From the human T2T-CHM13v2.0 reference genome, Homo sapiens, in contig CP086569.2 of the NCBI GenBank assembly GCA_009914755.4, positions 24,640,001-24,704,000 of the forward strand: a DNA stretch of 64,000 nucleotides. The letters are read 5' to 3'. Under the pieces are notes generated by a model. It was given only the letters and a program-made list of their open reading frames with translations, searched no databases and had not been told where the DNA came from. Shown here one piece after another: positions 3,972 to 6,994 of the stretch (position 1 is the first letter of the stretch; the number at the start of each line of letters is the position of its first letter). The translations under genes were made by a program, and so were the position numbers.

Positions 3972-5300
3972 AAAAGCTTTGTGTTTTTAAAGATATTAGA
4001 CATGTTTCTTGTTCTAAAAAAAATCTTAACAATAATGTAGGAGGATAAGACAAACAATTTTCCAAAAAAGAGAAATCATTGTGATTATTTTATCCTCCTG
4101 GAATGTTGGATACTATAGTCTGCTTCATTAATCAAGCATGCTATGGATTTTCCATTTTTATATGATCTACATCTCAAAAGGTAAAATGTACCAGGTCATG
4201 GCCCCCAACCCAGCCACAGATCCCCTCTGATGACAAGACCGGTGCCAGAGTCCATACTAATCCTGTGGCATACCAGACTGGGCCCCCCAACCCCAGCACC
4301 TCTGGGCTCCCCCCACCAAAGTCTTCTCAGTCAGCCCCACCCCTTCAGCAAGCCACTCAGTCCTTGCCCTTGCCAATCACCACAGGGTGAATTTGGGAGG
4401 GTGACTCCTGGGGCTCCTTGCTCCATACTTGGCCATCACCTTCTGCTGCCCCAAGCCCAACCTCCCTGGGCTCTTTGGGCTTGTGTCTCCCAGGACCTGG
4501 GTCCCCCAGCCCCAGGCCCTGCCCTCACCAGTCATCCCTGGGTGACTTTGGGCTGGTGACTCCTGGGGCTCCCTACTGCAGACTCTGCCCTCCCCTCCTG
4601 CTGCCGCAAGCTCAACCTCCCTGGGCTTCTTGGGCTGGTGTCTCCGAGGACCTGGGTCAAAACCCTGTATTTCCCTCCCCCATCATGGAGTGGCGACTCC
4701 GGCATCGCACTGATGTCCCCTCCCCTGGGAGGAGTGGAATGCAGTGATGTCACAGTGCCCCTAGGAACTGTCATTACTGCTGCAAGACCGGCCTTTGATC
4801 TTACAACCCAGTCCCCTAAGTTTTCTCACCCCATTTCTGGTTCCTCTGGTTGCAGCCTAAATTTCCAGCTGGAAGAGGAGTGGAGACTATGGGACGTATG
4901 AGCAAGAAGTTTCAGGCTGCCTTACTCCCTTAACAATGTCTAATTGACAGTGGGAAAAGCTTACACTTCCCCTGTGAACTCAAAATGTTGACAGTATCTC
5001 TGGGTGGCAATGGGAGAATGGGTTTGGTTTGGTTTTCTCCCAGGCTTCTACTTTCCAGAGAGACTTTGACAATTTTTTCTGAGTTCTCCACAGTTCTGGG
5101 ACCAGACTGCCCTTCAGTCAGTGGTCTCTGAGGTGAGATTTGCCCATCTTCTGTGGAATAGATCTTGGGAAACTGAACTTGACAGCTTGAATCTTCTCAT
5201 ATCATCTCAACCTGGGGTACTTTGAGTGCTACAGGATAAATGTGGGACATCTTTCTGAAGCATCATTTTCCCTTGATTCTCTTGAGAAAAAATATTAATG

Positions 5301-6357
5301 TTCTTTTTTTTAAAATTTTTATTATTATACTTTAAGTTTTAGGGTACATGTGCACAATGTGCAGGTTAGTTACATATGTATACATGTGCCATGCTGGTGT
5401 GCTGCACTCATTAACTCGTCATTTAGCATTAGGCATATCTCCTAGTGCTATCCCTCCACCCTCCCCCCACCTCACAACAGTCCCCAGTGTGTGATGTTCC
5501 CCTTCCTGTGTCCATGTGTTCTCGTTCAATTCCCACCTATGAGTGAGAATATACAGTGTTTGGTTTTTTGTTCTTGCAATAGTTTACTGAGAATGATGAT
5601 TTCCAATTTCATCCATGTCCCTACAAAGGACATGAACTCATCATTTTTTATGGCTGCATAGTATTCCGTGGTGTATATGTGCCACATTTTCTCAATCCAG
5701 TCTATCATTGTTGGACGTTTGGGTTGGTTCCCAGTCTTTGCTATTGTGAATAGTGCCACAATAAACATACGTGTGCATGTGTCTTTATAGCAGCATGATT
5801 TATAATCCTTTGCATATATACCCAGTAATGGGATGGCTGGGTCAAATGGTATTTCTAGTCCTAGATCCCTGAGGAATTGCCACACTGACTTCCACAATGG
5901 TTGAACTAGTTTACAGTCCCACCAACAGTGTAAAAGTGTTCCTATTTCTCCACAACCTCTCCAGCACCTGTTGTTTCCTGACTTTTTAATGATTGCCATT
6001 CTAACTGGTGTGAGATGGTATCTCATTGTGGTTTTGATTTGCATTTCTCTGATGGCCAGTGACGGTAAGCATTTTTTCATGCGTTTTTTGGCTGCATAAA
6101 TGTCTTCTTTTGAGAAGTGTCTATTCATGTCCTTCACCCATTTTTTGATGGGGTTGTTTTTTTCTTGTAAATTTGTTTGAGTTCATTGTAGATTCTGGAT
6201 ATTAGCCCTTTGTCAGATGAGTAGGTTGCAAAAATTTTCTCCCATTTTGTAGGTTGCCTGTTCACTCTGATGGTAGTTTCTTTTGCTGTGCTGAAGCTCT
6301 TTCGTTTAATTAGATCCCATTTGTCAATTTTGGCTTTTGTTGCCATTGCTTTTGCCT
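5301..6357 (-). mobile_element. L1 3' fragment: ORF2 C-terminus, 3'UTR and poly(A). Left-arm-specific.
   Basis: ORFs 5526-6137(-) and 6134-6346(-) match L1 ORF2. The 3'-end motif tactttaagttttagggtacatgtgcac is present. Poly-T lies at 5301-5330. The right arm at 53090-53230 has the empty site. Confidence 0.9.
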
Positions 6358-6452
6358 CATTTCAGAGAGAAGTCTGGTATACGCTTGGAAACCTATGTGT
6401 CTATCATCCCTAAGAACATTAATGTTTATTGAGAGTTTAATAAACATTAATG
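6358..6452. repeat. Inverted duplicate of the flanking target sequence (about 68 bp) plus 17 bp of filler, lying between the L1 5' junction and the downstream TSD copy. It pairs with 6440-6510 to form a perfect hairpin.
   Basis: 6358-6425 (catttcagagagaagtctggtatacgcttggaaacctatgtgtctatcatccctaagaacattaatgtt) is the reverse complement of 6440-6507. The right arm at 53140-53215 holds this sequence only once. Confidence 0.8.
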
Positions 6453-6994
6453 TTCTTAGGGATGATAGACACATAGGTTTCCAAGCGTATAGCAGACTTC
6501 TCTCTAAAATGAGGCTTGGGTTGTCCTCTTTCTGATAAATTCCCAGATTTAACAGAAAAGCTGCCTTCTGCCATGAGGACACATTGATATGAAAGTGTGA
6601 GAGGTACTCGTGCACTTCTTTACACTAACAGACATGTGAGGATGTATGACTCTAAACTACACGGCCTACAGTTCCTGCCTGCTTAATGTTTACTTTTCTA
6701 CCACTGTCCCTGGTTTTGGTCCCTGGAAGCTGCTGATTCATGGCAAAACCCCAGAGCTTGGAGTCAGAAGACTGAGTTTAAGTTCCAGTATTGCCTTTTT
6801 CTTTCCTTCTTTTTTTTTTTCTATCCATGATATCAATCACTCTCAGTCACTAAATGATTGTGACAACATCTTGTACAGTTGTTGGTGGCATTAAACCAGA
6901 TGGTGTATAAGAGTATTTTGTCAAAACTGTAAAGCAGGATGTGGCTATAGGGGCTGATTGTTCTCATGAGTGTTGCTGCTCTTCTTTCCCACAG

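What the first reader, a model, noticed from the sequence alone, without database searches (positions are those of the whole stretch)
5270..6520. L1 5' junction carries an inverted 68-bp copy of the adjacent target DNA, forming a perfect hairpin with the flank
Between the truncated L1 5' end (6357) and the TSD (acattaatgttc, 6440-6452 and 5288-5299) lies an inverted copy of the 68 bp downstream of the TSD plus 17 bp of filler (tattgagagtttaataa). The right arm has only one copy of this flank. This is not the classic L1 twin-priming 5' inversion, which inverts L1 sequence. It looks like template switching or foldback synthesis on target DNA during insertion resolution. A large perfect hairpin of about 70 bp is also a potential fragile or recombinogenic site inside the arm.
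Basis: seen in the sequence. Interest (0 to 1): 0.5.

Follow-up and report, generated by a model that had tools for sequence, protein, structure and literature searches.

The report
Fold-back target copy at L1 junction
A truncated L1 retrotransposon carries at its 5' end a 77-base inverted copy of the neighbouring target DNA, a rare but already described by-product of L1 insertion in which a loose DNA end folds back and copies itself; this copy is old and stable, not fragile.

Summary
Arms 6354-6430 and 6439-6515 (77 nt) are complementary except at two positions, with an 8-nt spacer. The inverted arm lies between the 5' end of a minus-strand, 5'-truncated L1 (5306-6354) and the 16-bp target-site duplication (5290-5305 / 6442-6457).

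The right arm of the window's large inverted repeat and 11 paralogous contigs all show an empty site with one copy of the flank. Two derived left-arm substitutions are shared by both hairpin arms, so the copy was templated from its own flank. Both mismatches are later mutations in the flank arm, so the structure is old and real.

Fourteen central bases (6425-6438) match L1 ORF2 in the L1's own orientation, 1,138 nt upstream of the truncation point (chance about 0.1%).

Best model: the upstream target 3' end began copying the L1 cDNA, snapped back through a 6-bp microhomology (AATAAA/TTTATT), copied about 70 nt of itself, then rejoined the L1 with 1-nt microhomology.

This class is known: foldback inverted duplication 5' of the target site, 52-220 bp, about 0.3% of somatic L1 insertions (Nam 2023; Mendez-Dorantes 2024). 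It is a new member of a known kind, of modest interest.

The parts
5290..5305 (.). Target-site duplication, copy next to the L1 poly(A) end (AAATATTAATGTTCTT; one later C>T change at 5293)
   Evidence: Left and right arm alignments overlap by exactly these 16 bp: left 5305 corresponds to right 53191, and left 6442 to right 53206. Sequence.
5306..6354 (-). 5'-truncated L1 (end of ORF2 plus 3' UTR, about 1.05 kb). The short poly(A) remnant appears as a T-run at 5306-5313. The 5' end lies at about L1 nt 4979.
   Evidence: 92.6-98.3% identity to 22 independent human L1 copies, all alignments starting at window 6354. 3.5% from a young-L1 consensus. L1 numbering taken from contig L027.
6354..6354 (.). 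1-nt microhomology at the junction of L1 and the inverted copy. In L1 sense the base is C, shared by L1 (..ACAC-C-AAAAGC) and the flank (..TGAGG-C-TTGGG).
   Evidence: junction printed beside five L1 copies and the flank.
6355..6424 (.). Inverted copy (70 nt) of 6445-6514, that is 13 nt of the TSD plus 57 nt of upstream flank. Inferred product of snap-back synthesis.
   Evidence: Absent from the right arm and from 11 paralogues. Shares two derived left-arm bases with the flank.
6425..6438 (-). 14-nt L1 ORF2 patch (minus strand AAACTCTCAATAAA, about L1 nt 3827-3840), in the same orientation as the L1 body and 1,138 nt upstream of the truncation point. 6425-6430 pairs with 6439-6444 (the priming microhomology). 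6431-6438 is the hairpin loop.
   Evidence: The 14-mer is present in 27 of 28 L1 contaminant contigs; positions. An L1 match of this length covers a random 8-nt core in 0.14% of non-L1 window positions. No other copy of the 11-mer AAACTCTCAAT in the window.
6439..6441 (.). Three extra bases (AAT) between the L1 patch and the TSD; origin unexplained. Together with the first AAA of the TSD they form AATAAA, complementary to the L1-derived TTTATT at 6425-6430.
   Evidence: The empty site and the other TSD copy read AAAAAA here, so 6441T is not target-derived.
6442..6457 (.). Target-site duplication, copy at the L1 5' side (AAACATTAATGTTCTT). The first-strand nick is inferred at GTTCTT/AGGG.
6458..6515 (.). 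Original upstream flank that served as template. It carries the two post-duplication substitutions, 6492G and 6506A.
   Evidence: Colinear with right arm 53190-53133 and onwards. The right arm, all 11 paralogues and the inverted copy keep C and G at these two sites.
53133..53209 (.). Empty (pre-insertion-like) site in the right arm of the large inverted repeat. One copy of the flank, no L1, no inverted copy.

Best explanation
This is an endonuclease-type L1 insertion whose 5' junction was built from three templates by snap-back (self-primed) DNA synthesis on the upstream target end.

Shown directly:
- A minus-strand L1 3' fragment with a poly(A) remnant and a 16-bp TSD.
- An empty site in the paralogous arm.
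- Between TSD and L1, reading on the L1-sense strand: TSD, then ATT, then 14 nt of L1 ORF2 (sense), then 70 nt that are the reverse complement of the TSD plus upstream flank, then the L1 body resuming 1,138 nt further 3'.

Inferred order of events:
1. First-strand cDNA reached at least L1 nt ~3827.
2. The top-strand 3' end left by the second nick (...GTTT-3'), with three extra bases, began second-strand synthesis on the end of the cDNA and made about 14 nt (AAACTCTCAATAAA).
3. This nascent end came loose. Its last six bases, AATAAA, paired with TTTATT 8 nt upstream on the same strand. A polymerase then copied about 70 nt of that strand's own TSD and flank, which must have been single-stranded through 5' resection or displacement of the partner strand.
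4. The extended end was joined to the L1 cDNA at about nt 4979 with 1 nt of microhomology, and the intervening 1,138 nt of cDNA were lost.
5. Fill-in fixed a 77-bp palindrome with an 8-nt loop.

The structure has no evident function. It is a repair scar that has since accumulated two point mutations.
For: - The inverted repeat is real and non-random.
- L1 hallmarks are present: T-run/poly(A), a 16-bp TSD defined by the overlap of the left and right arm alignments, an A-start TSD with a TCTT/AG nick site, and 5' truncation at a base agreed by 22 L1 alignments.
- The extra arm is missing from the right arm and from all 11 paralogous contigs. Each of those contigs has one match to the 30-mer probe.
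- Polarised substitutions show local templating. The T of GTTCTT and the T of GATGATAG are derived in the left arm and present in both hairpin arms, so the template was the local flank and not the other big arm.
- The two hairpin mismatches are derived changes in the flank arm only, so the duplication is old and not an assembly artefact.
- The central 14-mer equals L1 ORF2 sequence (27 of 28 L1 copies). It has the same orientation as the L1 body and lies upstream of it. The empirical chance is 0.14%.
- The patch explains three things together: the loop, the otherwise odd T/A pair (AATAAA/TTTATT where the target has AAAAAA), and why the foldback started where it did.
- The number of arm differences (2 in 154 nt) is compatible with the L1's own private divergence of about 2.7% (Poisson p about 0.2).
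- The same outcome is documented experimentally and in somatic tissue. Nam et al. [quoted passage not shown] Mendez-Dorantes et al. report inverted duplication on the reciprocal end with the TSD kept and 2-bp microhomology, modelled as resection, self-annealing and priming (bioRxiv 10.1101/2024.12.14.628481).
- Foldback at breaks using adjacent microhomology, with the other end captured by end joining, is shown in yeast (PMC11724301).
Against: - The order of events and the timing are inferred from one end product. No intermediate allele is available.
- The three bases ATT/AAT (6439-6441) remain unexplained, yet the A of that triplet is needed for the perfect 6-bp microhomology.
- A 14-nt match at p of about 0.001 is strong but was noticed after the fact.
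- The loop also shares the hexamer TTGAGA with the target just outside the TSD (5283-5288). This hints at a rival origin for part of the centre.
- Rejoining with only 1 nt of microhomology says little about the pathway.
- The polymerase (Pol theta, Pol delta or ORF2p) cannot be identified from sequence.
Confidence: 0.6

Rival explanations
1. Two separate events. A canonical L1 insertion of about 2.2 kb (from about L1 nt 3827 to the poly(A) tail, TSD 16 bp, 3 extra bases) was followed at a later time by a double-strand break inside the L1. The upstream 3' tail, trimmed to ...AATAAA, folded back and copied 70 nt. It was then end-joined to L1 nt ~4979, deleting 1,138 nt.
For: This gives exactly the same final sequence, including the L1 patch, the 6-bp microhomology and the 1-nt junction. 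Foldback templated inverted insertions at ordinary breaks are documented (PMC11724301). Arm divergence (2 in 154 nt) is, if anything, lower than the L1's private divergence, which allows a later date.
Against: It needs two rare events at one spot. The left breakpoint would have to fall by chance within 14 nt of the 5' end of a roughly 2.2-kb element. Foldback duplications attached to L1 5' junctions are a recurrent, documented outcome of the insertion itself. The difference in divergence is not significant.
Confidence: 0.2
2. Plain foldback of the TSD overhang, exactly as in the published model. The central 14 nt would be untemplated or unidentifiable filler, and the L1 match a coincidence.
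For: Published cases need only 2-bp microhomology and a small hairpin. The 14-mer is A/T-rich, and 5 of its last 6 bases are also what the target would give (AAAAAA vs AATAAA). The loop shares TTGAGA with the target beside the TSD.
Against: It leaves the 8-nt loop unexplained. It also leaves unexplained the paired T/A change seen in both arms but in neither the other TSD copy nor the empty site. The empirical probability of such an L1 match is 0.14% before counting orientation and colinearity.
Confidence: 0.1
3. Template switching by the L1 reverse transcriptase. The cDNA 3' end (the window's + strand) left the L1 RNA at nt ~4979, primed on the nicked target strand upstream, copied it across the nick into the TSD, returned briefly to the RNA at nt ~3840 and then joined the target. 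This resembles the 'snap-back onto nearby rDNA' junctions of R2-based insertion.
For: In R2/PRINT insertions, cDNA 3' ends prime extra synthesis on the cDNA or, less often, on nearby target DNA of the opposite strand (PMC11371274). TTT is shared between the end of the copied TSD and the start of the L1 patch on the + strand (6425-6427), which is a possible switch point.
Against: It needs four switches instead of two. The template strand is interrupted by the first nick exactly between flank and TSD, yet the copy runs through both without a scar. It would also require displacing the intact partner strand.
Confidence: 0.07
4. The palindrome is ancestral, or was copied from the oppositely oriented right arm of the big inverted repeat, or is an assembly artefact.
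For: The right arm already has this sequence in the orientation of the inverted copy. Palindromes can be created by read or assembly errors.
Against: The empty site in the right arm and in 11 paralogues has a single copy. The inverted copy carries two derived left-arm bases that the right arm and all paralogues lack. The two arms differ by two substitutions polarised to one arm, which an artefact would not produce.
Confidence: 0.03

Closest known systems
[quoted passage not shown]
   Same: The inverted copy of upstream target DNA sits between the TSD and the L1 5' end. TSD and poly(A) are kept. The 77 nt fall within the reported 52-220 bp. The class is rare, about 0.3-0.4% of somatic insertions.
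   Different: Those are somatic events in colon clones, called from short reads. This one is a germline copy at least millions of years old, with later substitutions. It also has an L1 patch at the palindrome centre and 1,138 nt of L1 missing, features not mentioned in the passages read.
Inverted duplication of genomic DNA on the 'reciprocal end' of ORF2p-made breaks (Mendez-Dorantes et al., bioRxiv 10.1101/2024.12.14.628481, Fig. 4D-E)
   Same: [quoted passage not shown] The TSD feature is preserved.
   Different: Their two examples have 2-bp microhomology within target DNA. Here the microhomology is 6 bp, and one partner is L1-derived. That implies second-strand synthesis had already begun on a longer cDNA.
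Foldback templated inverted insertions at double-strand breaks (Yu et al., NAR 2024/25, PMC11724301)
   Same: [quoted passage not shown]
   Different: The yeast events are mostly about 5-34 bp and unrelated to retrotransposition. The polymerase here cannot be determined.
Twin priming 5' inversion of L1 (Ostertag and Kazazian 2001)
   Same: It also arises at the L1 5' junction from the second-nick 3' end and yields an inverted segment flanked by a normal TSD (established knowledge; cited).
   Different: Twin priming inverts L1 sequence copied from the RNA. Here the inverted segment is target DNA, and the small L1 patch is in sense orientation, not antisense.
Snap-back 5' junctions of R2-protein-mediated (PRINT) insertions (PMC11371274)
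   Same: [quoted passage not shown] This is attributed to a 3' end priming extra DNA-templated synthesis before 5' junction formation.
   Different: It involves a different retroelement. There the cDNA end is thought to snap back, mostly onto the cDNA itself. Here the target top-strand end is the better fit.

Membership tests
Endonuclease-dependent L1 insertion by target-primed reverse transcription | L1 sequence ending in a poly(A) tail at its 3' end | tested here: met
   L1 3' UTR followed by an 8-T run on the + strand at 5306-5313. 92.6-98.3% identity to independent L1 copies.
Endonuclease-dependent L1 insertion by target-primed reverse transcription | Target-site duplication flanking the whole insert, single copy at the empty site | tested here: met
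   16 bp at 5290-5305 and 6442-6457. Single copy at right arm 53191-53206 and in 11 paralogous contigs.
Endonuclease-dependent L1 insertion by target-primed reverse transcription | First-strand nick at a TTTT/AA-like site | tested here: inconclusive
   The inferred nick GTTCTT/AGGG (TCTT/AG) is a two-deviation variant of the consensus. It is compatible but not diagnostic (consensus from established knowledge).
L1 insertion with foldback inverted duplication of upstream target DNA (Nam 2023 process C; Mendez-Dorantes 2024) | Inverted copy of the genomic DNA immediately upstream, placed between the TSD and the L1 5' end, absent before insertion | tested here: met
   6354-6430 is the reverse complement of 6439-6515. 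It is absent from the right arm and 11 paralogues. It carries derived bases of its own flank.
L1 insertion with foldback inverted duplication of upstream target DNA (Nam 2023 process C; Mendez-Dorantes 2024) | TSD feature preserved; extra synthesis of tens to about 200 bp | tested here: met
   16-bp TSD. 70-77 nt copied, against the published 52-220 bp.
L1 insertion with foldback inverted duplication of upstream target DNA (Nam 2023 process C; Mendez-Dorantes 2024) | Short microhomology and a small hairpin at the inversion junction | tested here: met
   AATAAA/TTTATT (6 bp) around an 8-nt loop. One partner is read as L1-derived. Published cases have 2 bp.
L1 insertion with foldback inverted duplication of upstream target DNA (Nam 2023 process C; Mendez-Dorantes 2024) | Formed in the same event as the L1 insertion | not testable with these tools
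   No orthologous or allelic sequence of this exact locus could be retrieved. Arm divergence is compatible with the L1's age but not decisive.
Twin-priming 5'-inverted L1 | The inverted segment is L1 sequence, antisense to the 3' part | tested here: not met
   The inverted segment is target DNA. The only extra L1 piece (14 nt) is in sense orientation.
DNA transposon or MITE with terminal inverted repeats | Inverted repeats bound a mobile unit that is found in other copies | tested here: not met
   One arm is ordinary flank shared with the right arm and 11 paralogues. There are no other copies in the window.
Structured RNA gene (for example a hairpin precursor) | Match to a curated RNA family | tested here: not met
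   No Rfam match at gathering threshold in 4000-8000. Expression is not testable here.

The most novel reading that the evidence does not exclude
The junction may be a fossil of the order of steps in L1 integration. The colinear 14-nt L1 patch at the palindrome centre would mean that second-strand synthesis had already started on a cDNA at least 1.15 kb longer than the final insert. The nascent strand then dissociated, folded back and rejoined further downstream. On this reading some '5' truncation' would be loss of already made cDNA during end remodelling rather than early termination of reverse transcription. If such colinear L1 patches recur at other foldback junctions, this would be a testable, general point about how L1 5' ends are made.
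Probability: 0.4. Interest if true: 0.5.

Novelty: new member of a known kind. Interest (0 to 1): 0.3.

Why it matters
The finding shows that a class of L1 junction so far documented in somatic clones, cancers and cell-culture models also reaches the germline. There it survives for millions of years as a 77-bp near-palindrome without obvious instability. The sense-oriented L1 patch at the centre is a small mechanistic clue: second-strand synthesis may begin and abort before the ends are remodelled. It also shows that apparent filler at retrotransposon junctions should be checked against the element itself. For annotation, the 'filler plus hairpin' should be read as part of one compound L1 insertion of 1,152 bp between the two TSD copies, not as a separate feature. 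It is one anecdotal case and changes no established view.

Tried and rejected
1. I tried to retrieve this exact locus from other assemblies through unique ORFs. The 101-aa ORF spanning the hairpin and the 82-aa flank ORF are both not on record.

2. A 30-mer probe of the flank found nothing in genome contigs or viral contigs. In metagenome contigs it found 11 contigs. These are paralogues (85-99% identical to one another, none at least 99% identical to the window), not the locus itself. They are useful as outgroups but not for dating.

3. The right big arm was considered as donor of the inverted copy and rejected on two derived shared substitutions.

4. A longer, 24-bp TSD that would include TTGAGA was considered. 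It was rejected because it leaves 7 nt (GTTTAAT vs AAA) unexplained, whereas the L1 patch explains 14 nt.

5. A hairpin centred on the target's own 10-bp palindrome ACATTAATGT was considered and rejected. The observed symmetry centre lies 13 nt outside that palindrome.

6. There is no Rfam family in 4000-8000. No long ORF crosses the empty site, so there is no sign that the site is coding.

7. No L1 copy with the ORF2 RT region exists in the window. L1 reference sequence was therefore taken from human contamination in 'bacterial' contigs.

8. Gilbert et al. 2005 (PMC1190285) could not be read. Older cell-culture precedents were therefore not checked.
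Full report
**What is there.** The + strand between 5290 and 6515 reads as follows.
- TSD copy: AAATATTAATGTTCTT (5290-5305).
- A T-run followed by the reverse complement of an L1 3' UTR and the end of ORF2 (5306-6354).
- A 77-nt stretch (6354-6430) that is the reverse complement of 6439-6515.
- An 8-nt spacer, GAGAGTTT (6431-6438).
- AAT (6439-6441).
- The second TSD copy: AAACATTAATGTTCTT (6442-6457).
- Ordinary flank after that.

The two 77-nt arms differ at two positions, 6363/6506 and 6377/6492. As single-stranded DNA the region folds at -85.9 kcal/mol, z = -22 against shuffles. 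Every other closely spaced inverted repeat of at least 25 nt in the window is either a pair of Alu A/T tails, only 70-74% complementary, or low-complexity. The L1 boundary at 6354 is fixed by 22 alignments to independent L1 copies, all of which start at that base.

**The empty site.** The window is itself a large inverted repeat: left arm 5-15137, right arm 58554-40805, 90.5-96.7% identity. The two alignments around the site overlap on the right arm by 16 bp (53191-53206), which defines the TSD. The right arm has neither the L1 nor a second copy of the flank.

A 30-mer from the flank retrieved 11 contigs from human-associated metagenomes. They are paralogues of the arms, and every one has the empty configuration with a single copy.

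**Where the copy came from, and that it is old.** With the paralogues as outgroups:
- The left arm has two derived bases in the copied stretch, the T of GTTCTT and the T of GATGATAG. Both are present in both hairpin arms. The template was therefore the local flank and not the oppositely oriented right arm.
- At the two mismatches, the inverted copy keeps the ancestral base and the flank arm has the derived one (6492G, 6506A).

An assembly or sequencing artefact would not produce polarised substitutions.

Two changes in 154 nt is compatible with the L1's own private divergence. The L1 shows about 2.7% private divergence, and 3.5% from a young-L1 consensus. The dating is too coarse to separate 'same time' from 'later'.

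**The centre is not random filler.** Read on the L1-sense (minus) strand, the centre is ...AATGTTT-ATT-AAACTCTCAATAAA-CATTAATG... The 14-mer AAACTCTCAATAAA is the L1 ORF2 sequence that encodes part of MLKTLNKLG.
- I recalled it from knowledge of L1 and then verified it in 27 of 28 human L1 copies found as contamination in 'bacterial' assemblies.
- It is in the same orientation as the L1 body and lies 1,138 nt upstream of the truncation point. By the numbering of contig L027 this is about L1 nt 3827-3840 against about 4979.
- In non-L1 sequence of this window, an exact L1 match of at least 14 nt covers a given 8-nt core at 0.14% of positions.

The patch accounts for the loop. It also accounts for the odd fact that both arms read AATAAA/TTTATT where the empty site and the other TSD copy read AAAAAA. 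In addition it supplies a 6-bp microhomology exactly where the foldback begins. Only the three bases ATT (AAT on the + strand, 6439-6441) stay unexplained. Extra bases at L1 5' junctions are common (established knowledge).

**Mechanism.** On the L1-sense strand the order is: flank, TSD (16), ATT, L1 nt ~3827-3840, reverse complement of 13 nt of TSD plus 57 nt of flank, one ambiguous base, L1 nt ~4979 to the end, poly(A), TSD.

The simplest path is the following.
1. The cDNA reached at least nt ~3827.
2. The 3' end left by the second nick, plus three added bases, started second-strand synthesis on the cDNA end.
3. After about 14 nt it dissociated.
4. AATAAA-3' annealed to TTTATT 8 nt upstream on the same strand.
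5. About 70 nt were copied from the strand's own TSD and flank. These must have been single-stranded after 5' resection or displacement of the partner strand.
6. The end was then joined to the cDNA at about nt 4979 with 1 nt of microhomology, with loss of 1,138 nt of cDNA.

The sequence architecture is shown. The order of steps, the resection and the polymerase are inferred.

**Rivals.**
- The same product arises if a canonical L1 of about 2.2 kb was later broken and repaired by foldback plus end joining. I rate this at 0.2, because it needs a second rare event whose left breakpoint falls within 14 nt of the element's end.
- The 14-mer may be chance, leaving the plain published model (0.1).
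- A reverse-transcriptase template-switch route is possible by analogy with R2 'snap-back' junctions. It needs more switches and must copy through the first-strand nick without a scar (0.07).
- Ancestral palindrome, donor from the other arm, and artefact are rejected.

**Comparison with what is known.** This is a described class.
- Nam et al. [quoted passage not shown] They attributed it to 52-220 bp of additional DNA synthesis during resolution.
- Mendez-Dorantes et al. show one experimental and one cancer case with the TSD kept and 2-bp microhomology. They propose resection, self-annealing and priming of the reciprocal end.
- Yu et al. show the general foldback mechanism at breaks in yeast.

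The present case meets the architectural features of that class (see the membership table). Twin priming fails its defining feature. What is added here:
- germline persistence with later substitutions;
- a longer (6-bp) microhomology, of which one partner is L1-derived;
- the implication that part of an already synthesised cDNA was discarded.

**Fragility.** Nothing supports the idea that the hairpin is a fragile site. It has an 8-nt spacer and has accumulated two arm mismatches without being deleted. The neighbouring sequence is colinear with the right arm on both sides.

**Verdict.** The feature is an ordinary, if rare, by-product of L1 integration: a new member of a known kind. Interest 0.3.

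Noticed in passing
window 5-15137 and 40805-58554; spacer 15138-40804: The window is a large inverted repeat with arms of about 15 kb at 90.5-96.7% identity. The inner ends next to the spacer are the most similar (96.7%). The spacer of about 25.7 kb carries broken CSPG4-like ORFs: Laminin G at 32555-33271 and a Cadherin_3/CSPG repeat at 34144-35040. This suggests a CSPG4-pseudogene type of segmental duplication.
   Followed up: partly
L001-L011 (metagenome contigs), aligned to window 4176-9432 and 50196-56474: Eleven contigs from human-associated metagenomes are paralogues of the arms (85-99% identical to one another). None is at least 99% identical to either arm, so either this locus was not sampled or the window is not from a human genome. 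A block of about 380 bp around the L1 target site is 99-100% identical in nine of them, although their flanks are only 86-97% identical. Possible causes are gene conversion, constraint or chimeric assembly.
   Followed up: partly
window 462-1343 (TSD 455-465 and 1341-1351): A second minus-strand L1 3' fragment, 93% identical to the first, has a plain 11-bp TSD (CTTATACATAC) and an ordinary 5' junction without any inverted flank. It serves as an internal control.
   Followed up: partly
window 6445-6454 and 5293-5302; right arm 53194-53203: The L1 target site contains its own 10-bp palindrome, ACATTAATGT. Each hairpin arm can therefore also form a mini-hairpin, and short repeat finders report extra spurious pairs here (I2 and I3).
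   Followed up: no
L012-L040 except L022 (GTDB genome contigs): Twenty-eight contigs filed under bacterial species (Streptomyces, Mycobacterium, Psychrobacter and others) are human L1 elements, several near full length. This is human contamination in public prokaryotic assemblies.
   Followed up: no
window 24248-24494: Two Alu-type A/T tails face each other (a poly-A run and a poly-T run 140-150 nt apart). They give the only other close inverted repeats in the window and are low complexity.
   Followed up: no
window 5283-5288 and 6429-6434: The hexamer TTGAGA lies just outside the TSD on the poly(A) side and again in the palindrome centre. I read the second as part of the L1 patch and the match as chance, but it was not excluded as a trace of a second small template switch.
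   Followed up: partly
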